DNA of 64,000 nt from the human T2T-CHM13v2.0 reference genome, Homo sapiens, in assembly GCF_009914755.1 (NCBI RefSeq), contig NC_060947.1; one strand, given 5' to 3'. The notes under the pieces were generated by a model. The model searched no databases, had not been told where the DNA came from, and saw nothing but the letters and a program-made list of their open reading frames with translations. Shown piece by piece: positions 18,623-29,829 of the stretch (position 1 is its first letter; every line of letters starts with the position of its first letter). The position numbers and the translations under genes were made by a program.

Positions 18623-20689
18623 CATCTTTTTTTGATCTGTTGATTTGATAACCAAGAAGGCTGCTAAGTAGCTAATGGGCAAGTAGCTTCTCAGATGATA
18701 TAGGTTTGATTACCTTAGAGCCACATAGTTCATTTTTTTTTTCTTTAAATGTGCTGAATGCTACTCCTGTGTTAATTTTCTTTGTGCTTGTCTCTGAACC
18801 ATGTGAAACTGCTTTTCCTGGATTTTCCATCTTGCACTATCATTGCTCTCTGTTACAAGATGCTGCAAAAGGTTTTGCTAACAAATTACTTCTTGTGTTC
18901 TATACAGAGATAGTCCTGGGTTCATGAGTGCTACTCACACACCCAACTTCTCTCTAATGATGCCCACTGATGCCCTATTAACCCACAGAAGATGCTTTTT
19001 TTATATGAAGTGTGATGGCAAATTAATAGATGGCAAATTGATTTGCAAAAGTTTCTCCAGGTGACAAGGGAGAAGCTTGTTTTCTTACAAGATGATCTCA
19101 CACCTGCCCCTGTGTGGTCTTCCAACTCTACACCCTGCATGAGAGAAAACCTTCCATTGGCCTCACTCTTGAAATAGATAGGGCAGATACCCCACTGGGG
19201 ATGCCTGCAGGAGAGTTTCCTCCATGCCTTCCTAGGAACCAGAATAAGGAGATTAAGGTCCAGATTGTGAGAGCAAACCGTCCTTCATGAATGAACACTC
19301 AGTGCACCAAAACCTCACTGACTTTTCTAAGGGTAGCCGATGTTCTCCGAAATTCTGATTTACAGACAACTGAAGGCCCCCAAGGGCCTCCCAAGAGAAA
19401 GGTAGACTATCACATGTGAACACAGAGGCCTATGGGACAACTTTTTGTCAGAATTTTAAAGGCAATGTGGGACTGTTTCTCATAAGTTCTCACTTAAACA
19501 TATTGTCCTGCCTCATATGGACTATGTCTATCTCTTCCCTATTTGCAAGTTAGAGAGAAAGAGGATCTCCTGTCACCATGGTCTTGGCTGTTTTCTTATC
19601 ATACCTCCCAAAAGAAAGGCCTGAAATGGACAATTTGTTTCTGGTTTTGAAGAGTGAGGCTATTGAGCCATGCTGAAGTAAAAAGGGGAAGGCAGCTCCT
19701 GCCTTTGGTCTGGTGGATCATCCCTGCTTACCTGCCTGTACCCCTTGCACCAACCTCTAGCTGTCTGCTTTTTCCAGATCTGTCTGGTCCTGGTTTGCAC
19801 ACCTGTTCATGGGGCTCTCCAGAACTGCCTTTCCACGATGGCTCTGCTTTGTGTGCAAAAGGAACAGTACTGCCCACCAGGAGGAGGATAGGCCAGAAAC
19901 CCAGAAAGATTTCTAGAAAGAGGCTATAACTGGAGCAGAAGTAGGGATCAAGGGATGGAGGGAAGGGGTCTGTTTTCAACTACAGAAGTAACATCCAGGG
20001 TGTCAACCACGTTTCTATGGAAGTGTGCATATGTGTGTGCACACACATATACAGCTGTAGATTAGCCCTAGCTGCTGTGAAAGTAGACTGTGCTGTGTGT
20101 CTGGTATTTTTCAAACAAGTATCACAGTGACGGACAAGGTTCTGTCTACTTTCCTAACCTTCATTTCTCTTCTTTCTTCATTCACCTCCATCTCCTTCTC
20201 CTTTCTCCTTATCCTTTATTTCTTCTTCATCATTATCTTTGTGTCTTTGTCTTAATCTTTTTTTCTCTCTATTTTACCTTCTTCCTCTCTTTTTCTTCCT
20301 CCTCTCTTTTTTACCCTTTTCATTCTCTGTTAACAGCCCCAACCCTCTTGCAGTTATCCACATAGGGCCTTCTTCCAGCTATCCCCACCCCTCCAGATAT
20401 CTATATTCAGCTAATCCTTGCAGAGTCCTTCCTGCATTATGTCTCTTCTTTTCTGTGGCCATCATTTTTCTGGCTGACTCTAAGTCTCCTCAATCTGAAC
20501 CAGTTTCCATGATTTTCCCAACCTCAAATGTTCCCAATATTTTTATTAAAGTAATCATTGTAAACCTTCTGGTCCTTTGCACACATCAGCAAAGTTCTTT
20601 ACAGGGCACCTCTGGTAACTTATCACCTTTTGCTTTTAACTCTTTCTTTTTTCTTTCTTTTTTTTTTTTTTGCTCGTTTTAGAATGTTC

Positions 20690-20695
20690 TTTATT
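20690..20695 (-). terminator. Polyadenylation signal AATAAA of the retrocopy
   Basis: TTTATT on the + strand, 18 nt from the start of the poly(A) remnant at 20671. Confidence 0.85.
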
Positions 20696-21879
20696 CTGAC
20701 AGTTGTTGGACAAATATAAGGCATGTTCACAAGTATCTGAAGTTATGTACAAAACACACTCATTCGACAGATATTCCTATTCTCCTTTTGTACTTGCTGC
20801 TGCAAACTGATCTTTCTGCATGTTAACACCCATAGCGCTCAATTCTTATGGATATGCAGAGAATGTTTTGGGGACCACCGTGGAGAACCTGTTTCAAACT
20901 AAGACGTAAGCTTCTTTGAACTAAGTCACTAAGACATCAGAACTCACGGTGAACAAAGGCAGAGGAAGGTGACCAAATCAGCTCATAATCTCATGACTCT
21001 AAGTTTACAGTGGAACAAAGAACACATTGAAAAACATTTTTTGATCCTTCATGTTGGAGAGAAATGGAATGTGTCCAGAATTCATGGTTCTACATTTATC
21101 ACTGTCTAAAAGTCACAAAACAATATCTAATTTTTTCATGGTTTCAAATGCAGTTACAGTTTTGTTCTTAGGCCACAGTACAAGATTGCATGCATTACTT
21201 TACACAAATGTCAAACACAGAATGATTGTAACACAGACAGCTCAGGGTTGTCTAAAGACACAGCTTCTCTTTTTGTGGTGGGGTCGGGAAGGAGAATGAT
21301 GGTGGCCATTTCCATACACAGCCTGTTGTGTGCTCAGCACGGCTGGATGCGGATCCCAAGAACTTGCTGACTGACTCACAGAAGAGGACAGAAGCTGCTG
21401 AGGAGGGCAGCAGAGTTCAAAGAGCAGTCTCCAACTGGGGGCTGGGATGACGGACACAGAGCCTCGATTCCAGGGGGAAAAAGTCTTAGTCAATACTAAT
21501 TAAAAACTGTTAACGATTTTTGAAAATCAGATTACATCTATAAAAGATGAAAAGTAAACACTTAAAACAATCTATTGAGGGGAACATAAAATAATAAAAA
21601 ATGAAATGCAGCTGGGATTTCACAAAGAGGAGATTTGAATCTTTTGGTCTCAATCAGCCAATATTTTAACATTAACTATAAATTATTAAAATGTAGTTTG
21701 CTTATGCCCATTCTTAAAATGCAGAATCTTTGAGGAAAAATATAGGCATATTTTCAGGAATACAGACTCTTGTAAAAAATTTTAAAAGTCAGTATCATCT
21801 CTCTTGCGGAGCTACTGAACAGGTTTTTCAAACACAAAAGGGGAACAAACATGGGGCGCTTGAATATGTTAAAAATTCT

Positions 21880-22168
21880 TTTTTTTTTTGAGACAGAGTT
21901 TCGCTCTTGTTGCCCAGGCTGGCGTGCAATGGCGCAATCTCGGCTCACCACAACCTGCGCCTCCGAGGTTCAAGCAATTCTCCTGCCTCAGCCTCCTGAG
22001 TAGCTGGGATTATGGGCATGCACCACCATGCCTGGCTAATTTTGTGTTTTTAGTAGAGACGGGGTTTCTCCATGTTGAGGCTGGTCTCAAACTCCTGATC
22101 TCAGGTGATCCGCCCGCCTCGGCCTCCCAAAGTACTGGGATTACAGGCGTGAGCCACCGCGCCCGGCC
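21880..22168 (-). mobile_element. AluS (AluSp-like), full length, in the retrocopy 3'UTR
   Basis: Starts GGCCGGGCGCGG on the minus strand; diagnostic GTTTCGCTCTTGTTGCCC and GGTTTCTCCATGTTG; TSD GAATATGTTAA(A/G)AATTCT at 21862-21879 and 22169-22186. Confidence 0.92.
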
Positions 22169-22568
22169 GAATATGTTAAGAATTCTTATCACTAGAATAC
22201 TGCTTTGAGGCGCTCACAGTACTTTCCAAAAGAAACTACCCACCTCAAAGAGCCCTGCACAGCCCAAGCGACCCATGAGTGTGGTAGCCATCATTTTGTT
22301 AGCCACTGCTTGGCCATCATCAAAGTATTCACTCAGAGTGGGGAAATTACTTAATATCAATGATATTAACGATTTCCATGGATTTAGCTTTGTAACACAC
22401 AATGCACAAGGGTCTTCAGATGTTTGCTTTTTACACCAATGGTAGGAAATTGTCATTCTTCCGATTCAACACGCTGGCGGATGACGCTTTAGTGAAGTGT
22501 GACTACCTAGAGGAGCAGGAAGGCGGCTCCCGATTCTCACTGGGCCAGCCTCTTCCAGAAGGTGCAGG

Positions 22569-25500
22569 CTACTCTTCTGACAGGAGATCACAAGTCTGGC
22601 AGGCTGGGCAAGCGCTCTGCCCTTTAAGCCACTGCTTAAAACACCCTTTGTGATACTTGTGCCCACATTTGAGCACACGCACGTTTTTTGATTTGAACAC
22701 CTCGTGACATATTTCACAGGAACTTGCACCCAGTGCAACCCTCACAGGGACATCTTCTGCTTTCTGCCCCTTGGTTTTGGGTGATGGTGCAACAACCGCC
22801 AAGGGTGGGCCCTGGGAGGACCTGGTCACGTGGGCGGCAGAGCTGGGCTCATAAGTCCTCTTGTCCTTTCCTGGGTTTGGCTTTTTCTTTTTCTGTTCAT
22901 CTAGAATGTGTTCTGTCACTCTTTGGACAATTTCATCAATACTCAATCCTGAAAGTGAGTTCTTGTTTTTGCTTCTCACTTTTTTAATAAAACCAGCAAG
23001 CTCAGTGCTGTTGTAACATGGGAATACCACTGACAGGTGCTCAATAATACTATTGAATGGCTTTTTTGGAGACTGGCTTGAACATGCAGCACACCCTGGA
23101 GGAACAGGCTGCTTCTGATCAGCCGCAGGGCTTTGCTCTGACAGAGCTGCCTGGCCAGCCCCTTTTGGCCCTGGCAGCTGAGTGGCTTCAGGCTGAGAGG
23201 GGGGTGGCCCTGGCAACAGTGCAGAAGGAGCCTCCCCTGGGGAATCGCCGGCAGAGAACACACTGGGATCCCTGTGAAGTGCTGCTTGGTTTCCAGTCAC
23301 ATCGCTTGCGGAAGTCATAAACCCTTGGTCATCATGGCCTGAAGACTCAGGGAGTAACTCAGGATGAACCGTGTTACAGGCAGGAAATGAAAGCTCAGAA
23401 ATCTGCACTTTAGAAAGTTCACTGAGCCGAGAACCATTTTTAATTGCCTTAATTTGTTCTTCAAACTGATACTTTGCTTTCTCAGTTTCTTTTGTAACAT
23501 TAGAAAGAAACAATTCCCATGAACATATATCGGACTCCATGTCAGGATATGCTGCAGGATCATGGCTAATCAGCTCCAGCTTCTTCAGATAGGCTTCTGC
23601 TTGTGACTGCATGATCTGTAGCTTATACACTTCACTCTCCTTCCAGTTTTCAAGTACGGATACCTCTGCAGCCACAGCTCTCTGATGACTCTCTTCATAA
23701 TCCTTTTTCCCTTTCTTTATACACTCTTCTATTTTCATTTTCTCGTTTGTAAGTGTGTTGCTGATTTCAAGGGACTGATCCAGATGTAATTCATGTTCCT
23801 TATCATTTCCATCATTTTTCTGGGTATACATTTCATTGGCATTTGAAACCTTTTTAATTTTCTTCTTCAGTGATTTTAGTGTTTTTTGGATTTCTTTTTT
23901 TTCCTCTTGCCATTTTTTAATTTCTCTTTCCAAATCTTGAAGCAACCAATCTAATTCTGTCTTTGATATCTTGTTTTCTTCTAAGTGCCTTTTCAACTTT
24001 TCTTCCAGGTCCCTGGTCTCTTCTAAGCCCTTAAGTTTTATCTGCTCATAATTTTCATACGCTTCTTTAAGTTGGTCTTGTAATACTTGGTACTCCTTTT
24101 CAATCCGTGAAATTTCCCCTTGTTGTTTCTCAAAAGGATTATATGGCTCAGTATTGACTTCTTGGTGTGTTATGTTCCAAGATACCTGTATGGCAACCAT
24201 CTGCACCTGTGGAATGTTTGTTACTGCACTGGTGCTTTCTGGAATTACTTCACATTTGTTGTTAGAATTTCCACAGTGCCCATCTTTTCTGTTAGACTCA
24301 CTCAGGACTGTATGAGCATCACCTGTGCTGCACTGTGACTTTACAGATATTAACGAAGAATCCTCAAGGATCTGTGTTTCGGAGGCAATCTGGTGACCAG
24401 CAGCATTCTCAGCATTCAAATGATGACCCTCAAAATAGGCAGTAGCATTTTTATCTGCTCTGTCATTGGCTACAAAAGACGGCACCACTGGTACTGATCT
24501 TGGTAGCTGATATTCAGGAGAAAGGCTGACCAAGGGTGTATATATGCTGGTGTACTGGGGCAAACCTGGTAACACATTTATGTATGCTGGCGATGTCCGG
24601 GTGTTATCAAATCTCTGGAAAGGAAGATACGTACAGTATCCTGTGACCAAATGGGATTGAGCCCAATAAGTTGGTTTCACATCCTCAAGAACCGGTTTGG
24701 GAGAATTAGAGGAGACTCGCTTGTAATTTGCATCCTCAGAGCCTGGTTTGGGAGAATTAGAAGAGAACCCTTTGGGTTTCCCATCCTCAGAAACTTGTCT
24801 AGAAGAATTATCGGATACTGGTTTGGCCTTCACATCTTCACAAGCTGGCTTGGGAGAATTTGCAGACAAAGGTTTGGGTTTCACATCTTCAGAAGCTGGT
24901 GCTGAAGATGAACCTGATACTGGTTTAGACTTTACATCTGGTTTAAATTCCCTAGCAGCTGAATTAAGTGGTAGTTTAACTTGTAAATACTCTCCTGCTT
25001 TTGAAATGTCTTCTACTTTTGTTTTAATGTTTTTCTTCTTTCTTTTTTTCTTGAGCCGTGATGCAACTTTCTTCAATGCAATACAGTTGTCAATCACAAC
25101 AAAACGGGGACATCCCAAGAGAAAAGATTTTAAACCTCCTGCTTTTTCTAGTATTGGTCGAGTTTCTTCTGGGAAAAACTCATATTCTTCAGAGAACATC
25201 TTGTGACTCATGTCCAAGGGACCATGTTCCTCCAACAACTGAGAGAAGTAATCATATAGAGTTGAACATTTTTGTTTTGGGTTCATGTCCCATAGCTTCT
25301 TATTGCGGACAACATATTCATTACTGTGTTGGTCATAGAGAGCTTCAAATTCTTCTACGTCTTGCCGAAGATGGTCAGGCACTGCAAATGGGCCTGCAGT
25401 ATCTGAATTTTGATTGCTATGGTCTTCACTTGAAGTGATGATCTCATTATTTGGAGTTACTGAAGTTGTTCCAGACCCAACTAACATAGGCTTTGAATCC

Positions 25501-28500
25501 TTTGGTTTCTTTTTCTTGCCTTTGTTTTTCACCTTGGTAGAACTAAACGGTGCTTCGCCACTGTCTTGTTTCCTTAACACAGTACAGCGGCTGTCCATTA
25601 TATCAAAGAATTCATCTAAAGCACTATGTAATGCTGGGAACTTGTCTCTGTGTTCTTCTAGCAGCCATATTAAACAGCGGGCTTCCTTCGATGATGTTGG
25701 CTCAAAGAAATAATCAAGTTGCTTTCCTTCTATAGAGTCTAGTTTGTGACCATATTTCTCATTCCAGAGGAAAGTCATGATGCTAAAATCAAGCTGTTTA
25801 AGAGATGCTTCATACCGAGAAAAGAAAGGTCCTGTGGCATCTAAGCCAAAGCTATTAAGTTTTCGGATCCAGGCGGCTAATTTGGGCTCCACTTCTTTAA
25901 GCTCACTCAAAACATGCAGAAATATTCTTGTCTTTACTCTGTTCTTTTCTTGAATCAAGTGACGAATAACATAGTCCACTGCTTCATTTAGAAAATTTCT
26001 GCTTGAAAAACAGGTTGTATAGTCCTCTGTGCTCAAAACTTTCCAAGAAAGCAATTCTTTGAGAAGCGTGGCTGTATTCCATATGCCGGATTTAATCTTG
26101 TCAGCATACTGCTTTATACACTGTAGAATTCTGTCATCAAGGAACTGACAATGCTGAACATTGTCTACAGTTTCTTTCTGCTCTTCGTTTTTGGGTGGAT
26201 TACTTTCTCTTAAGTCCTCCTCCATTCTTTCTTGTGCTAATTTTTTTGCTTCTTTTTTTTGGATCTTTCTCTTCAATTTTTTGTCTTCTTTCAGTCTTAG
26301 TTTCTCTAGGCTAGAACATTTCTGTTTCAGAATAGGTCTTGGAGGAACCTTTTCTTTTATGACCTTGTGTTCAAATTCACATTTAACTTGACCACCACTG
26401 CTGAAGATGATAATCTTAGAAATGACACCTTCACAGTCAGGGGTAAGACATATTCCTTGTAGAAAATCCTTGTCAATTTTATCATTAAAGGTTGTGGTTT
26501 TTAACTTCTTCCAGCAATTCATGTGAAATTCTATTTTACAGTACTGGCAACAGCTGATGCGTATAAAACCCTTAAAGTCTGGATCAGTTATGTATATCTG
26601 GATCTTAGAATATCCACAGCACTTCTGATAGCAACAAATGGCATCTGGCACTGGAGGGAACTTGCATTCTTCAACAAATTTCTCTAACAGCATCTTTATT
26701 TTTTCTGGCTGAGACTCTTCAATAATCACATTACTTGTGGGCCAAGTTAACACTCCAGGAAGACGATAAATCAAGGTTCTTGCTTTCTCAAAGTGATTGA
26801 GAGCTTCTAGAAATCTGTTTTTTTTCAAATATACTTTTCCAATTCCACAGTAGGCCAAGCAATCAAGTCCCTCATTGTGGTAGTGTTCAATAATCCTCTT
26901 AAACTGGTTTTCAGCTTCAGATAGTTCTTCAGGCTGTCCTATTCCAAGGAGTGAAATGGCAAGTCCATAGACAACCAAGACATAGTTAATCATGGCCAGA
27001 TTCAATTGCTTTATTTTTTGAGGATCTAAACCATTCAGCAACTCTGTAAAGGCATGTGCGGCACTGCGGCAACGCTGCTCCAATAAGGCTGTATAGCCAT
27101 CTTGAATTAAGCTTCTCAGCATTGTCATTATATTAGCAAAATCCTGGTGTGCACCTCTGGAAGATTTAGAAAACTGTTTCTCCAAGATGTTCTTCAAATC
27201 TGCTGGTAAAGTCAATTGTGAACTAGAACTGAACTTTTCTGATTCATTGTTTCGAGATTTTTGTTTTCCTTTATGTTTCGGAGGCTGACTTGATGGTGGT
27301 GAAAATTCAGGATGACAGTCACAATCATCTACCATCAATGCCTCATCCATCACCTTTAGATTCTGATTACCACCGTTAGCCATTTCGTGATTAATTTTTC
27401 TGAAATCTCTTTCCTTCTCCACAAAGTTAAGTGAAGTACTAAATACAGGTGCTGATAAACTCCTAGGTGTGTAGGCCCTGTTTTCATAAAAGGCTTTAAT
27501 TGGATTCTTATTTGCTGTTCGACCTTGTAGGTCTTCTATTTGTTTTTGTAACTTTACATGCTGCTGAATTAGATCCTTGATTCCCTCAGGGTCATTTTTA
27601 CAGAGTTTTTGAGCTGTTATGTTTGCTTGCAGGGCCCAGTTATATTCCCCCAGCATAGAAAGAGCATCACAATAACGATAATGACCCTTTGGCCAAGTGT
27701 TCTTCAGAATAGTGGCTCTCTTTCCATCACCAAGTGCATTTCTAAACTGTCCAGTACGAAGAAAACAAAGAGCTCGGTTACCATAAAGAAGGTGGTTTTC
27801 AGGTCTATATTCAATGGCTCTGGTGTAATAGATAATAGCTATATCAAATCTTTCTTTGGAAAACTCTTCATTTCCTTTCATTTTCATTAGTTCTCCTTGC
27901 TCTATACAATCCATACAACTTTGGGTTTTAAGTTCTTCAAGCAAATTGCAGTCTTCCATTACAATTTTAGTTATGTGGTACTTGTATTCAGTAAAGAAAA
28001 TACTTAACATAGGCCAACAATTGTCAATTGATCCTAATTTAGTTAGAATTGTTACATCGCCTGCATATTTTATCCAATTCAGAGCTTCTTCCATTGCCAA
28101 GATTTTATTTTCTATTTTATAACCAATTCTCAATAAGCCTCCAATAAGGAGTGAATCATTAGCAGCTTTCTTTGCCAAATCCACAATATCTTCCATCAAC
28201 TCAAGATGTTGTAATCTCTTCAAATTTATCTCGGAAGCACGTGAATTGTTGGCGTCCACACAGGGATGCAATCGTGATATTACAGAACTGTTTTGATGTT
28301 GAAACAGAAGTGGCCAGAAGATGTTTATTTTAATGGCATCACAATAATCTTGCAGGACAGAAATTGGTTTACTACACCATATACTGCAGATGTCAAATTC
28401 TAAATTCCTCTCACTTTGGACATAATCTTTATATTGCTTACCCACCCCATCACAGTAAAGCTGAGTCACACGAACATAATCATCGGTCATAAATTCAGCA

Positions 28501-28556
28501 GCAAAGACACAATCGTCCACGTAAGGGCAATCTTCTAACAAGGCATAATCCGCCAT
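22569..28556 (-). CDS. TTC3-like E3 ubiquitin ligase ORF (TPR repeats, PAM2 motif, coiled coil, C-terminal RING-H2). 1995 aa from the strong-Kozak ATG at 28556; frame open upstream to ATG 28670 and GTG 28856
   Basis: The 2095-aa ORF in the track is collinear with human TTC3 as I recall it (DNFAEGDFT...; TPR KMKGNEEFSKERFDIAIIYYTRAI; RING CEICHEVFKSKNVRVLKCGHKYHKGCFKQWLKGQSACPAC at 22718-22599). Translation is not demonstrated. Confidence 0.75.
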   Translation of the reverse strand: MADYALLEDCPYVDDCVFAAEFMTDDYVRVTQLYCDGVGKQYKDYVQSERNLEFDICSIWCSKPISVLQDYCDAIKINIFWPLLFQHQNSSVISRLHPCVDANNSRASEINLKRLQHLELMEDIVDLAKKAANDSLLIGGLLRIGYKIENKILAMEEALNWIKYAGDVTILTKLGSIDNCWPMLSIFFTEYKYHITKIVMEDCNLLEELKTQSCMDCIEQGELMKMKGNEEFSKERFDIAIIYYTRAIEYRPENHLLYGNRALCFLRTGQFRNALGDGKRATILKNTWPKGHYRYCDALSMLGEYNWALQANITAQKLCKNDPEGIKDLIQQHVKLQKQIEDLQGRTANKNPIKAFYENRAYTPRSLSAPVFSTSLNFVEKERDFRKINHEMANGGNQNLKVMDEALMVDDCDCHPEFSPPSSQPPKHKGKQKSRNNESEKFSSSSQLTLPADLKNILEKQFSKSSRGAHQDFANIMTMLRSLIQDGYTALLEQRCRSAAHAFTELLNGLDPQKIKQLNLAMINYVLVVYGLAISLLGIGQPEELSEAENQFKRIIEHYHNEGLDCLAYCGIGKVYLKKNRFLEALNHFEKARTLIYRLPGVLTWPTSNVIIEESQPEKIKMLLEKFVEECKFPPVPDAICCYQKCCGYSKIQIYITDPDFKGFIRISCCQYCKIEFHMNCWKKLKTTTFNDKIDKDFLQGICLTPDCEGVISKIIIFSSGGQVKCEFEHKVIKEKVPPRPILKQKCSSLEKLRLKEDKKLKRKIQKKEAKKLAQERMEEDLRESNPPKNEEQKETVDNVQHCQFLDDRILQCIKQYADKIKSGIWNTATLLKELLSWKVLSTEDYTTCFSSRNFLNEAVDYVIRHLIQEKNRVKTRIFLHVLSELKEVEPKLAAWIRKLNSFGLDATGPFFSRYEASLKQLDFSIMTFLWNEKYGHKLDSIEGKQLDYFFEPTSSKEARCLIWLLEEHRDKFPALHSALDEFFDIMDSRCTVLRKQDSGEAPFSSTKVKNKGKKKKPKDSKPMLVGSGTTSVTPNNEIITSSEDHSNQNSDTAGPFAVPDHLRQDVEEFEALYDQHSNEYVVRNKKLWDMNPKQKCSTLYDYFSQLLEEHGPLDMSHKMFSEEYEFFPEETRPILEKAGGLKSFLLGCPRFVVIDNCIALKKVASRLKKKRKKKNIKTKVEDISKAGEYLQVKLPLNSAAREFKPDVKSKPVSGSSSAPASEDVKPKPLSANSPKPACEDVKAKPVSDNSSRQVSEDGKPKGFSSNSPKPGSEDANYKRVSSNSPKPVLEDVKPTYWAQSHLVTGYCTYLPFQRFDNTRTSPAYINVLPGLPQYTSIYTPLVSLSPEYQLPRSVPVVPSFVANDRADKNATAYFEGHHLNAENAAGHQIASETQILEDSSLISVKSQCSTGDAHTVLSESNRKDGHCGNSNNKCEVIPESTSAVTNIPQVQMVAIQVSWNITHQEVNTEPYNPFEKQQGEISRIEKEYQVLQDQLKEAYENYEQIKLKGLEETRDLEEKLKRHLEENKISKTELDWLLQDLEREIKKWQEEKKEIQKTLKSLKKKIKKVSNANEMYTQKNDGNDKEHELHLDQSLEISNTLTNEKMKIEECIKKGKKDYEESHQRAVAAEVSVLENWKESEVYKLQIMQSQAEAYLKKLELISHDPAAYPDMESDICSWELFLSNVTKETEKAKYQFEEQIKAIKNGSRLSELSKVQISELSFPACNTVHPELLPESSGHDDQGFMTSASDVTGNQAALHRDPSVFSAGDSPGEAPSALLPGPPPSQPEATQLPGPKGAGQAALSEQSPAADQKQPVPPGCAACSSQSPKKPFNSIIEHLSVVFPCYNSTELAGFIKKVRSKNKNSLSGLSIDEIVQRVTEHILDEQKKKKPNPGKDKRTYEPSSAAHVTRSSQGPPLAVVAPSPKTKGQKAEDVPVRVALGASSCEICHEVFKSKNVRVLKCGHKYHKGCFKQWLKGQSACPACQTCDLLSEE

Positions 28557-28589
28557 AGTGAAATCTCCCTCAGCAAAATTGTCCGTGAT

Positions 28590-28900
28590 GCACAAGTCAC
28601 GCACACACGGAGGGGTGTGGAAGGCCCCGCTCCCCTGGCATCTCGGCTGCAGCGGGACCAGGTAACACATCCGGGAGCCCGGCCGCGCGCCGGGTGTGCA
28701 CTCACCCGGGCCTGCCGCCCGCGAGCCTGGGACGCAGGCATCCGCCGCCGCCGCCGCCGCCACCGCCGCCGCCGCCGCGGCCGCCGCCGCAGCAGCCGCC
28801 GCCGCCGCCGCCGCCGCCGCTGCTGCCGCTGCCGCTTCCGCCGCCGCCGCCGCCACCTCCGGCCCTCTACGTCAGCGGACGGTGGGAGGGAGCGAGTGCT
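28590..28900 (-). promoter_or_regulatory. CpG-island-like 5' leader of the retrocopy with a CRE-like site (TGACGTAG, 28874-28867)
   Basis: Very high CpG density against CpG-depleted flanks; TGACG half-site near the 5' end. Confidence 0.6.
28743..28853 (-). repeat. Interrupted (GCG/GCN)37 trinucleotide tract, reading A5-E-A24-V-A6 in the TTC3 frame
   Basis: Read directly: CCG runs interrupted by CAC, GCG, GCA, GCT and TTC on the + strand. Confidence 0.95.
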
Positions 28901-29829
28901 TTTAACTGTTTCGGTGTCAATACTGACCACAGTCATTATTTTCTCCGGCTGTACTTTAAAGTCTTAATGGTTGAAGCCATGTATCCTTTGCCCACAGACC
29001 AGAGGAAGGGGAACCAGGTTCTTTCAGGAAAGTGCATGGGGGATGCCTCTCTCTCATCATGTCCCCTGACTCCCAGGTGTAATCATAATCTCCTCATGGA
29101 AGTGCCAGGCACATAGAGAGTGCTCTTCCTGCTGCCTCCACTCCTGCTAGACAGAGCCCTGTCAAGGTCATCCTAAGGGCTGGGATCCACTAACAGCTTT
29201 GACCTTAAAGCAGAGTCTGATATTGGGGATGTCATTTCTTCACTCTGATGTACTAATTTTTTTTTTTATCTATACGCTGATGAGAGGCTGCTCAGACACC
29301 TGCAAATTAGCATCACACTCCCCTAGGTTCTCTAGCAAGATATTCTGGGAGGAAAACCTCTGAATCTTATTTCTACCTGTTGCTCAAGGAAGGGACTGTT
29401 TCCAAAGAAAATCACAGTCGTATACAGGGGAGCTTTTCTGTGTCCCTTTTTCTCCTTTGTTCCTTTTCCCCTCTCTCTCTTTTAATGGCACCCATTTCTT
29501 CCCATCACTTAGAATCACTGAGAATCTTTTTTTACCCTGGCTTATAAATTGTGTAGAATTCCTGTAAAGTATGGTGCTCCTTTGTCTGTTTCCATTGTCT
29601 CTGACCTAATTTTTGACTGACTGGCCATTTACCTGATCCACTTTAAAAGCCAGGAGAACTGTGTTCTCATTTCAGAAGAAACTGTGTTACCCTGGCCAGT
29701 TTTCTTCCCTTTTCTGGGATTCATTTCATCTGTAAAATGGGGGGCGGGGGTTGACCATCCTGGGTTCTATCTGGAGGTCGATGGGAGTCAGAGAGAGAGC
29801 TCTGACATGGTGATGCAGGGCCTTGAACT

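What the first reader, a model, noticed from the sequence alone, without database searches (positions are those of the whole stretch)
22569..28856. TTC3 'pseudogene' with an uninterrupted ~2,000-codon reading frame: candidate X-linked E3-ligase retrogene
Seen: an intronless TTC3 copy with poly(A) tail and TSD and no frameshift or internal stop over 6.3 kb. Against human TTC3 recalled from memory it has about 120 amino-acid differences (~94% identity) and no apparent indels. TPRs, PAM2 and all eight RING-H2 ligands are kept. Known: the human X-linked copy is annotated as pseudogene TTC3P1; TTC3 is a RING E3 ligase reported to target phospho-AKT. Inference: a neutrally evolving 6-kb ORF at this divergence would be expected to carry several stops or frameshifts, so selection to keep the frame open is likely.
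Basis: partly seen in the sequence, partly recalled or inferred. Interest (0 to 1): 0.9.

Follow-up and report, generated by a model that had tools for sequence, protein, structure and literature searches.

The report
Intact X-linked TTC3 retrogene candidate (TTC3P1)
A full-length, intron-free copy of the ubiquitin-ligase gene TTC3 on the human X chromosome, labelled a pseudogene, has kept its 2,005-codon reading frame open since before apes and Old World monkeys split, which points to selection, although the human copy has lost the original start codon.

Summary
Window 22569..28670 (-) is a 2033-codon ATG-to-stop ORF inside a complete processed retrocopy of chr21 TTC3, with all introns removed, a poly(A) tail and an 11-nt target-site duplication.

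Against the parental CDS rebuilt from this assembly:
- 205 of 6015 nt and 119 of 2005 aa differ, with no indel.
- The retrocopy's own 3'UTR is 5.41% diverged and has 6 indels in 1517 nt.
- TPR1, 2 and 4 and the RING are identical.

The "early" stop is the ancestral TTC3 stop; the hominoid parent later gained a 20-aa tail.

Two Old World monkey proteins group with the human retrocopy (SH-aLRT 98). They are gap-free over the same 2005 codons, so the ORF predates the ape/monkey split and survives in three lineages.

Chance survival is rejected:
- P(no stop) is 0.0007-0.028.
- P(no frameshift) is 5e-5 to 0.01.
- A polarised CpG-decay test gives a nonsyn/syn rate ratio of 0.37 (p=0.002).

Amino-acid constraint is only moderate: pairwise dN/dS is 0.41-0.68, about the same as the parent.

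There are also a new overlapping 68-codon uORF, an in-frame upstream ATG and a new strong-context ATG at codon 11. Present-day translation in humans is therefore open.

The parts
28897..28907 (-). 5' target-site duplication AGTTAAAAGCA. Its last 2 nt are ambiguous with the first bases of the retrocopy.
28587..28898 (-). Leader derived from parental exon 1 and the 5'UTR part of exon 2. It has a 1-nt deletion relative to the parent. GC is 0.81 and CpG o/e is 1.06 over 28600-28900, so it is CpG-island-like, against o/e 0.29 in the CDS.
28742..28854 (-). Imperfect (CGG)n array, 37.7 units, 87% matches. It is expanded relative to parental exon 1, where TRF reports no array.
28535..28741 (-). New upstream ATG (28741, G at -3) opening a 68-codon out-of-frame uORF. 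The uORF overlaps both the former start and the ATG at codon 11. It is absent from the parent.
28668..28670 (-). Upstream ATG, in frame in human only through the 1-nt leader deletion. Its context is weak (C at -3, T at +4). It starts the 2033-aa ORF.
28584..28586 (-). Former initiator codon. It is ATG in the parent and Met in both monkey retro proteins, but ACG in human. The context still has A at -3 and G at +4.
28554..28556 (-). New in-frame ATG at parental codon 11 (GTG to ATG, a change on the human retro branch), in a strong context (A at -3, G at +4). It is a candidate replacement start.
22569..28670 (-). Open reading frame of 2033 codons plus stop. Codons homologous to parental 1-2005 occupy 28586-22572.
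27693..27896 (-). TPR1 and TPR2 (parental residues 231-298), identical to the parent.
24939..24968 (-). PAM2-like stretch (residues 1207-1216), with one difference from the parent.
22596..22718 (-). RING-H2 finger (parental residues 1957-1997), identical to the parent.
22569..22571 (-). Stop codon TAG at the ancestral TTC3 stop position. The human and gibbon parent lacks it and runs 20 codons further.
20673..22568 (-). 3'UTR-derived sequence. 1517 nt align beyond the parental stop at 5.41% divergence with 6 indels. It is interrupted by an Alu.
21881..22168 (-). Alu inserted into the retrocopy's 3'UTR, flanked by its own TSD AAGAATT[C/T]TTAACATATTC.
20642..20672 (-). Retrocopy poly(A) tail (interrupted), preceded by AATAAA.
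20631..20641 (-). 3' target-site duplication AGTTAAAAGCA.

Best explanation
TTC3P1 is a complete L1-type processed retrocopy of the chr21 gene TTC3. It covers 5'UTR, CDS and 3'UTR and is about 8.2 kb including a later Alu. It inserted on the X chromosome before apes and Old World monkeys split. Since then it has been kept as a protein-coding retrogene: a TPR plus RING-H2 E3 ubiquitin-ligase paralogue of TTC3 that retains the ancestral C-terminus.

Shown here:
- The retrocopy anatomy.
- An open, gap-free frame in human and in two monkey proteins that form a clade with it.
- Fewer stops, frameshifts and nonsynonymous changes than neutral decay predicts.
- Identical TPR1/2/4 and RING domains.
- A 300-bp leader that has kept a CpG-island composition.

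Inferred:
- The CpG-rich leader inherited from the parental promoter region serves as the promoter.
- The product acts like TTC3, as a RING-dependent ubiquitin ligase.

In the human lineage the original start codon became ACG. Translation, if it still occurs, must start at one of three places: the ACG (a near-cognate codon in a good context), the new strong-context ATG at codon 11, or the weak upstream in-frame ATG. It must also compete with a new overlapping uORF.

I put about 0.9 on 'ORF maintained by selection for most of its history'. I put about 0.5 on 'still makes a functional protein in humans'. The confidence value below is for the combined statement with human status left open.
For: Anatomy:
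- 46 colinear exon pieces without introns.
- Poly(A) tail and an 11-nt TSD.
- This is the only other match to mid-CDS in the assembly besides the parent.

Frame:
- 0 stops and 0 indels in 2005 codons against 205 substitutions.
- Its own 3'UTR has 6 indels per 82 substitutions in 1517 nt.
- A decayed chr11 TTC3 fragment has 6 indels (a 151-nt skipped exon apart) and 2 stops in 284 codons at 15.3% divergence.
- P(no frameshift) is 5e-5 at the per-nt UTR rate. It is 0.026 at the lower 95% bound of that rate.
- P(no stop) is 0.0007-0.028.

Constraint:
- CDS 3.41% against 3'UTR 5.41% divergence, Fisher p = 5e-4, at equal GC and CpG content.
- Pairwise dN/dS: 0.41 (NG86), 0.50 (LWL85), 0.61 (YN00), 0.68 (ML).
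- Nonsynonymous fraction 0.617 against a neutral 0.708, p about 0.003-0.006.
- Amino-acid changes: 49 on the retro lineage, 52 on the parent lineage, 18 ambiguous, of 119.
- CpG decay on the retro lineage: 19 synonymous and 14 nonsynonymous, rate ratio 0.37, Fisher p = 0.002. None of the 12 stop-creating opportunities was used.
- No long identical tracts. The longest is 195 nt against a random mean of 168 and a 95% point of 233, so there is no sign of gene conversion.

Orthologues:
- The tree of 15 proteins gives (human retro, (Chlorocebus 'TTC3-like', Rhinopithecus)) at SH-aLRT 98. This clade is sister to (Mandrillus, (Symphalangus, human parent)) at 98.
- Both monkey retro proteins are gap-free over 2005 codons and keep Met1.
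- Their lineage-specific changes avoid sites that are invariant in 9 outgroups: 10 of 29, 6 of 27 and 9 of 36, against 56% expected (p = 0.015, 0.0004 and 0.0002).

Promoter hint: leader CpG o/e is 1.06 against 0.29 in the CDS.

Transcription: TTC3P1 appears in RNA-seq gene lists, including allele-specific calls (passages only).
Against: - In human the parental ATG is ACG.
- The leader has a new 68-codon uORF overlapping every plausible start, and the in-frame upstream ATG has a weak context.
- On the human-specific branch alone, the site-conservation test is not significant: 14 of 32 changes fall at invariant sites, p = 0.11.
- 11 of the 37 human-branch changes pile up in one helical domain (p = 0.008). 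That could be relaxation.
- With a realistic mutation spectrum, the retro-lineage dN/dS test depends on how the synonymous changes are split between lineages: p = 0.003 to 0.05.
- The RefSeq transcript covers only the 3' 2.5 kb (22210..24751, hub annotation).
- Short reads can cross-map from TTC3, which is 96.6% identical. TTC3 and TTC3P1 appear together in a trisomy-21 differential-expression list.
- No peptide or ribosome-footprint evidence was available.
- The genomic position of the monkey genes could not be checked; only their proteins were seen. No great-ape or New World monkey retrocopy could be examined.
Confidence: 0.8

Rival explanations
1. A retrogene that has recently died in the human (or ape) lineage. 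It was protein-coding for most of its roughly 30+ My and still is in Old World monkeys. Loss of the initiator ATG and gain of an overlapping uORF ended translation in humans, too recently for stops or frameshifts to have built up. TTC3P1 would then be a young, transcribed pseudogene, as annotated.
For: - ATG to ACG in human, while both monkey retro proteins keep Met1.
- A new 68-codon uORF from 28741.
- The human-branch site-conservation test is not significant (p = 0.11).
- Human-branch changes cluster in one domain.
- RefSeq labels the locus a transcribed pseudogene with only a 3' partial transcript (hub annotation).
Against: - The human branch as a whole has as few amino-acid changes as the parent: 37 against 38. 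Tree branch lengths are 0.026 against 0.026. Any loss of constraint must therefore be recent.
- A new ATG in an optimal context arose only 10 codons downstream on the same branch. By my hand estimate, a chance change to Met within the first 30 codons has a probability of about 0.02.
- ACG keeps an A at -3 and G at +4 context.
- The leader keeps CpG o/e of 1.06.
Confidence: 0.4
2. An ordinary neutral processed pseudogene whose long ORF survived by chance.
For: It is annotated as a pseudogene. Pairwise dN/dS by ML is as high as 0.68.
Against: - Joint conservative probability for the human lineage alone is about 3e-5 to 2.5e-4. This is my own multiplication of P(no stop) for 100 substitutions, 0.014-0.028, by P(no frameshift). 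The second factor is 0.002-0.009, scaled to about 100 substitutions at the observed 0.056-0.073 indels per substitution.
- Two further lineages are also gap-free.
- The CDS evolves slower than the copy's own UTR.
- The CpG-decay nonsyn/syn rate ratio is 0.37.
- By hand: 132 lineage-specific amino-acid changes across the retro clade, times 0.041/0.679 stops per nonsynonymous change, gives about 8 expected stops. None is seen.
Confidence: 0.01
3. The locus is kept for an RNA-level role (competing-endogenous RNA, antisense partner of lncRNA LOC107985664, or regulator of TTC3). The open frame would be incidental.
For: It is transcribed according to RNA-seq gene lists. It lies inside an antisense lncRNA span (hub annotation).
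Against: - RNA-level selection does not protect a reading frame or favour synonymous over nonsynonymous change.
- Differences by codon position are 58, 61 and 86.
- CpG-decay ratio is 0.37.
- There are zero indels in the CDS, but 6 in a quarter as much UTR.
Confidence: 0.03
4. The low divergence and open frame result from gene conversion by the parent, or from independent recent retropositions in each lineage, rather than from long-term selection.
For: None found. It was considered because conversion can mimic constraint.
Against: - Differences are spread evenly. The longest identical run is 195 nt, within random expectation.
- The human and monkey retro proteins form one clade with 12 shared derived residues, apart from each species' parental type.
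- The retrocopy keeps the ancestral stop that the hominoid parent lost.
Confidence: 0.02

Closest known systems
TTC3 (chr21, parental gene; RING-H2/TPR E3 ubiquitin ligase reported to target phospho-Akt)
   Same: - 94.06% amino-acid identity over 2005 residues with no indel.
- The same Pfam architecture.
- TPR1, 2 and 4, Ser378 and the RING are identical, and PAM2 is kept.
- A similar rate and pattern of protein evolution.
   Different: - Intronless and X-linked.
- Lacks the 20-residue tail that the hominoid parent gained when it lost the ancestral stop.
- The initiator is ACG in human.
- The leader has an expanded CGG array and a new uORF.
- Its function has never been tested. The TTC3 review I searched does not contain the word pseudogene.
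Primate protein-coding retrogenes of similar age, such as TAF1L (a long ORF retrogene) and GLUD2 (an X-linked retrogene). Both are recalled from memory and were not checked here.
   Same: A processed copy of a multi-exon parent that kept a long open frame for tens of millions of years and moved between an autosome and the X.
   Different: Those are accepted genes with expression and functional data. This copy is annotated as a transcribed pseudogene, has no such data, and in human lacks the canonical start.
Chlorocebus sabaeus 'E3 ubiquitin-protein ligase TTC3-like' (P0002) and Rhinopithecus roxellana A0A2K6NCA2 (P0003)
   Same: They form a clade with the human ORF (SH-aLRT 98). They are gap-free over 2005 codons. 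P0002 ends at the same residue.
   Different: - Both keep Met1 and Val11.
- They are annotated as protein-coding in those species.
- Their genomic location was not seen.
- The Rhinopithecus model steps over the stop position, leaving a 5-residue gap.
Decayed TTC3 retro-fragment on chr11 (L002)
   Same: Also derived from a spliced TTC3 mRNA, with exons joined and one 151-nt exon skipped.
   Different: It has 15.3% divergence, 6 indels and 2 in-frame stops in 284 codons, and only about 0.7 kb is left. This is what neutral decay of this sequence looks like.

Membership tests
Processed (L1-mediated) retrocopy | All parental introns are absent and the exons are joined exactly. | tested here: met
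   46 colinear exon pieces, with junctions resolved to GT-AG (one GC-AG) in the parent.
Processed (L1-mediated) retrocopy | Poly(A) tail at the mRNA 3' end and flanking target-site duplication. | tested here: met
   AATAAA plus an A-tract at 20672-20642. The 11-nt TSD lies at 28907-28897 and 20641-20631.
Protein-coding retrogene | Intact ORF covering the parental CDS. | tested here: met
   No stop and no indel in parental codons 2-2005, ending at the ancestral stop.
Protein-coding retrogene | A usable initiator codon. | tested here: inconclusive
   The parental ATG is ACG in human. Alternatives exist at 28670 (weak context) and 28556 (strong context), but a 68-codon uORF overlaps them.
Protein-coding retrogene | ORF conserved in orthologues of other species. 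| tested here: met
   2 of 2 retro-type monkey proteins found are gap-free over 2005 codons and form a clade with the human ORF. Synteny was not checked, and apes and New World monkeys were not available.
Protein-coding retrogene | Purifying selection on the retrocopy lineage (dN/dS below 1). | tested here: met
   - CpG-decay ratio 0.37, p = 0.002.
- Nonsynonymous changes 58-70 against 101-110 expected from the UTR rate, p = 4e-8 to 7e-4.
- Pairwise omega 0.41-0.68.
- A proper branch model needs primate DNA.
Protein-coding retrogene | Transcription of the full ORF and translation. | not testable with these tools
   Only gene-list mentions in RNA-seq papers. The RefSeq RNA covers 22210..24751 only. 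No Ribo-seq or proteomics data were accessible.
TTC3 family RING-H2 E3 ligase | TTC3-specific domains plus a C-terminal RING with all ligands. | tested here: met
   PF24525, PF19179, PF24812, PF24905 and PF13639 all score above their cut-offs. RING residues 1957-1997 are identical to the parent.
TTC3 family RING-H2 E3 ligase | Ubiquitin-ligase activity. | not testable with these tools
   This needs a biochemical assay.
Non-functional processed pseudogene | Disabling mutations or neutral evolution. | tested here: not met
   There are no stops or frameshifts, and neutrality is rejected. The only disablement is the loss of the ATG in human.

The most novel reading that the evidence does not exclude
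Human TTC3P1 is a live gene. After about 30 My as a retrogene, its start codon was relocated on the human/ape branch: Met1 became Thr and Val11 became Met, with the new ATG in an optimal context. It would make an X-linked TTC3 paralogue with the ancestral C-terminus and a fast-changing helical domain. Transcription would come from a CpG island inherited from the parent's 5' end and, if the published XCI-escape calls are real, at a sex-biased dose. TTC3 biology (Akt turnover, Down-syndrome dosage, knock-down and antibody experiments) would then have an overlooked second locus.
Probability: 0.3. Interest if true: 0.7.

Novelty: new member of a known kind. Interest (0 to 1): 0.55.

Why it matters
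Retrogenes with 6-kb ORFs are rare, because few 8-kb mRNAs are copied full-length and fewer stay open.

If TTC3P1 is coding, three things follow.
- Primates, and perhaps humans, have a second TTC3-type E3 ligase on the X chromosome next to the X-inactivation centre. TTC3 is studied for Down syndrome, Alzheimer disease and Akt signalling as if it were single-copy.
- siRNAs, antibodies, read mapping and knock-outs aimed at TTC3 may hit this locus or be buffered by it.
- Its label as a 'transcribed pseudogene' would need revision, at least in Old World monkeys, where it is already modelled as protein-coding.

The human start-codon change gives a clean, testable case: either start-codon relocation or very recent gene death.

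In the library searched, no paper discusses this copy. The terms were 'TTC3P1', and 'TTC3' with 'retrogene', 'retrocopy' or 'processed pseudogene'. Retrocopy databases and supplementary tables were not searchable and may list it.

Tried and rejected
1. I first took the stop after ...LLSEE to be a premature truncation. I rejected this when 7 of 9 non-anthropoid TTC3 proteins fetched were seen to end in EE at that position, with tarsier ending in EK and dog two residues earlier.

2. I assumed the X-linked copy has a lower neutral rate than the parent. This is not supported. Polarised CpG decays are 19 against 13 at synonymous sites and 13 against 9 in the UTR, in favour of the retro lineage.

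3. The NG86 dN/dS of 0.41 overstates constraint. With kappa of about 4.8 the neutral nonsynonymous fraction is 0.708, not 0.78-0.79, and ML gives 0.68.

4. The search for further primate retro-type proteins among shorter database entries gave only a marmoset N-terminal fragment and unnamed short pieces. Nothing useful came of it. The marmoset fragment merely agrees that several 'retro-type' residues are ancestral.

5. The gene-conversion check was negative.

6. The 'Orphan retrogenes' paper hit was TTC30B, not TTC3.

8. Three genome-search runs did not complete. Two of those queries were replaced or repeated successfully. The 3'UTR query was not repeated, so other copies of the 3'UTR alone were not looked for.

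9. I ran no structure or complex prediction. The domains in question are identical to the parent, so a fold would add nothing.
Full report
**1. What is there**

On the minus strand, window 22569..28670 is a single ORF of 2033 codons from ATG to stop. The frame is open from stop to stop over 22569..28871, 2100 codons. Pfam finds the four TTC3-specific domains, TPRs and a C-terminal RING above their cut-offs.

The window's own assembly could be searched. The same sequence matches exon by exon on G000:C21:35.455-35.585 Mb. I fetched 180 kb there. I chained 46 colinear exon pieces and resolved every junction to GT-AG, with one GC-AG. This rebuilt a parental CDS of 6078 nt, 2025 aa.

The X copy is therefore a complete processed retrocopy. 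It starts in parental exon 1 at about 28898 and runs through the whole 3'UTR to AATAAA and an interrupted A-tail (20672-20642). It is flanked by an 11-nt target-site duplication, AGTTAAAAGCA, at 28907-28897 and 20641-20631. An Alu with its own TSD sits in its 3'UTR at 22168-21881. For the mid-CDS query, the assembly holds only this copy and the parent. A 0.7-kb decayed fragment lies on chr11.

**2.

- Over the 2005 shared codons there are 205 of 6015 nucleotide differences (3.41%), split 58/61/86 by codon position.
- 145 are transitions and 60 are transversions.
- 119 of 2005 amino acids differ (94.06% identity).
- There is no stop and no indel.
- TPR1, TPR2, TPR4, Ser378 and the RING (1957-1997) are identical to the parent. 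The domain limits come from the review PMC9239942, of which I read passages.
- The PAM2 stretch differs at one residue. That TTC3 carries a PAM2 motif rests on a figure legend in PMC7356810.

**3.

(a) The parental initiator is lost. The parent reads ...CACC ATG GAC..., while the retrocopy reads ...CATC ACG GAC... at 28586-28584. The ATG at 28670 that opens the 2033-codon ORF lies in 5'UTR-derived sequence. It is in frame only because of a 1-nt deletion in the leader. In the parent that ATG is out of frame.

The human leader also has:
- a new ATG at 28741 opening a 68-codon uORF that overlaps all candidate starts;
- a 14-codon uORF at 28641;
- a new in-frame ATG at parental codon 11 (GTG to ATG, 28556) in an A(-3)/G(+4) context.

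(b) The ORF ends 20 codons before the human parental stop, at a 6-nt indel that contains the TAG. This is not a truncation. Lemur, mouse lemur, galago, tree shrew, squirrel, rabbit and mouse TTC3 all end in EE at that position. Tarsier ends in EK there and dog ends two residues earlier. The human and gibbon parental proteins carry the extra tail. The retrocopy has kept the ancestral stop, and the hominoid parent lost it later.

**4. Orthologues**

The large protein database returned two Old World monkey proteins of the retro type. These are Chlorocebus sabaeus 'TTC3-like' (P0002, 2023 aa, ending at the same residue) and Rhinopithecus roxellana A0A2K6NCA2 (P0003, 2020 aa).

In an IQ-TREE tree (LG+G4, quick search) of 15 proteins, they group with the human retro ORF at SH-aLRT 98. 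This clade is sister to (Mandrillus, (Symphalangus, human parent)) at 98. I chose the 15: the window ORF, the rebuilt parent, the 4 best primate hits and 9 non-anthropoid mammals, out of the 120 hits listed.

Both monkey proteins align without a gap over all 2005 codons and keep Met1 and Val11. The Rhinopithecus model merely steps over the stop position.

The insertion therefore predates the ape/Old World monkey split. From general knowledge, not computed here, that split is roughly 25-30 My old. The frame is open in three lineages. I saw only proteins, so their genomic position was not verified. No ape or New World monkey retrocopy could be examined, and a second search among shorter proteins added nothing.

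**5. Is the open frame more than chance?**

Stops:
- Random substitutions on the parental CDS (kappa 4.8, CpG x1 or x10, 3000 replicates each) leave no stop with P = 0.014-0.028 for 100 substitutions. That is about the number actually on the retro lineage.
- P = 0.0007-0.003 for 170 substitutions, the number expected at the UTR rate.

Indels:
- The copy's own 3'UTR has 6 indels (1, 13, 1, 3, 1 and 1 nt) and 82 mismatches in 1517 aligned nt.
- The chr11 fragment has 6 indels per 108 mismatches, plus 2 stops in 284 codons.
- At the UTR's per-nt rate, half assigned to the retro lineage and 5 in 6 frameshifting, 9.9 frameshifts are expected in the CDS, so P0 = 5e-5.
- At the lower 95% bound of that rate, P0 = 0.026.

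Across the clade (my own arithmetic): the 132 lineage-specific amino-acid changes in the retro clade imply about 8 stops if they were neutral, at 0.041 stops per 0.679 nonsynonymous changes. None is seen.

**6. Is the protein sequence constrained?**

Yes, moderately, and about as much as the parent.

- Pairwise dN/dS is 0.41 (NG86), 0.50 (LWL85), 0.61 (YN00) and 0.68 (ML).
- With the observed transition bias, the neutral nonsynonymous fraction is 0.708. The observed fraction is 0.617, p about 0.003-0.006.
- The CDS is less diverged than the 3'UTR (3.41% against 5.41%, Fisher p = 5e-4), at the same GC and CpG content.
- Polarising the 119 amino-acid differences with the monkey retro proteins, the parental-type primates and 9 outgroups gives 49 on the retro lineage (12 stem, 37 human branch), 52 on the parental lineage and 18 ambiguous.
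- A neutral copy should have clearly more changes than its constrained parent. Tree branch lengths agree: 0.026 against 0.026.
- From the UTR rate, 101-110 nonsynonymous changes are expected on a neutral retro lineage. The observed range is 58-70, Poisson p = 4e-8 to 7e-4.
- I used CpG to TpG/CpA decay to polarise nucleotide changes. The retro lineage has 19 synonymous and 14 nonsynonymous decays against 68 and 136 opportunities. The rate ratio is 0.37, Fisher p = 0.002, and none of 12 stop-creating opportunities was used.
- The parental lineage gives a ratio of 0.42, p = 0.036.

Site-conservation test: lineage-specific changes in the monkey retro proteins avoid sites that are invariant in 9 outgroups. 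The counts are 10 of 29, 6 of 27 and 9 of 36, against 56% expected (p = 0.015, 0.0004 and 0.0002). The human retro branch (14 of 32, p = 0.11) and the human/ape parental lineage (14 of 33, p = 0.08) show only a weak trend.

Differences are evenly spread. The longest identical run is 195 nt against a random mean of 168, so gene conversion does not explain the similarity.

**7. Expression hints**

The 300-bp leader (28600-28900) has GC 0.81 and CpG o/e 1.06, while the CDS has decayed to 0.29. Keeping CpGs for this long suggests a germline-unmethylated CpG island, meaning a promoter inherited from the parent's 5' end. This is an inference.

The leader holds an imperfect (CGG) array of 37.7 units that the parent lacks.

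In the searchable literature, TTC3P1 occurs in 15 papers, in gene lists only. I read passages in five.
- It is called a novel robust escapee from X inactivation in fibroblast single cells (bioRxiv 10.1101/298984).
- It carries allele-specific SNPs in iPSCs and neurons (10.64898/2026.02.27.708613).
- It appears beside TTC3 in a trisomy-21 list (PMC4535757). That is what cross-mapping from the 96.6%-identical parent would also produce.
- It appears in a placenta list and a muscle-ageing list.

No paper found with 'TTC3' plus 'retrogene', 'retrocopy' or 'processed pseudogene' deals with this copy. Supplementary tables and retrocopy databases were not searched.

**8. Verdict**

The best reading is a catarrhine-wide TTC3 retrogene that encodes a TPR/RING-H2 E3 ligase with the ancestral C-terminus.

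What remains open is the human copy. It has lost the canonical ATG and gained an overlapping uORF. It also gained a strong-context ATG ten codons downstream, and it shows no other damage.

Two readings fit, and I give them roughly equal odds: a relocated start, or a gene that died very recently. Eleven of the 37 human-branch changes fall in the helical domain at residues 1486-1735 (P = 0.008), which fits either relaxation or adaptation.

This is a new member of a known kind (primate retrogenes), not a new kind of system. Its interest is moderate, raised by its size and by the medical attention given to TTC3.

Noticed in passing
window 22569-22571, compared with G000:C21 about 35583700 (last TTC3 exon): The human and gibbon parental TTC3 has lost the ancestral stop codon through a 6-nt deletion and gained a 20-residue C-terminal tail. 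That tail is absent from lemur, galago, mouse, squirrel, rabbit and tree-shrew proteins. The retrocopy preserves the older state, like a molecular fossil.
   Followed up: partly
window 28742-28854: An imperfect (CGG)n array of 37.7 units (87% matches) in the retrocopy leader, on the X chromosome. TRF finds no array in the parental exon 1. The open frame runs through it up to 28871.
   Followed up: partly
window 23379-24128 (parental residues 1486-1735): 11 of the 37 amino-acid changes on the human retro branch fall in the 250-residue TTC3 helical domain, where 4.6 are expected (P = 0.008). Several are charge changes. This could be relaxation or adaptation.
   Followed up: partly
L002 (G000:C11:67187179-67187900, approximately): A second, old TTC3-derived processed fragment on chr11, covering about 0.7 kb of the 5' CDS. 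It has 15.3% divergence, 6 indels and 2 in-frame stops, and it derives from an mRNA that skipped the 151-nt exon.
   Followed up: partly
window 21881-22168: An Alu inserted into the retrocopy's 3'UTR with an intact 19-nt TSD (one mismatch). The RefSeq RNA NR_030737.1 ends at 22210, about 40 nt upstream of it.
   Followed up: no
G000:C21:35455570-35455658 (parental exon 1): In the parental TTC3 mRNA, an upstream ATG 57 nt before the annotated start is in frame and open. It would add 19 residues. The Chlorocebus TTC3-like model starts at the equivalent ATG.
   Followed up: no
proteins P0003, P0004: The Ensembl-derived monkey models (Rhinopithecus, Mandrillus) skip 5 residues exactly at the ancestral stop position. 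This suggests that the models step over a stop with a tiny intron. The Mandrillus model has several further gaps and scrambled stretches.
   Followed up: no
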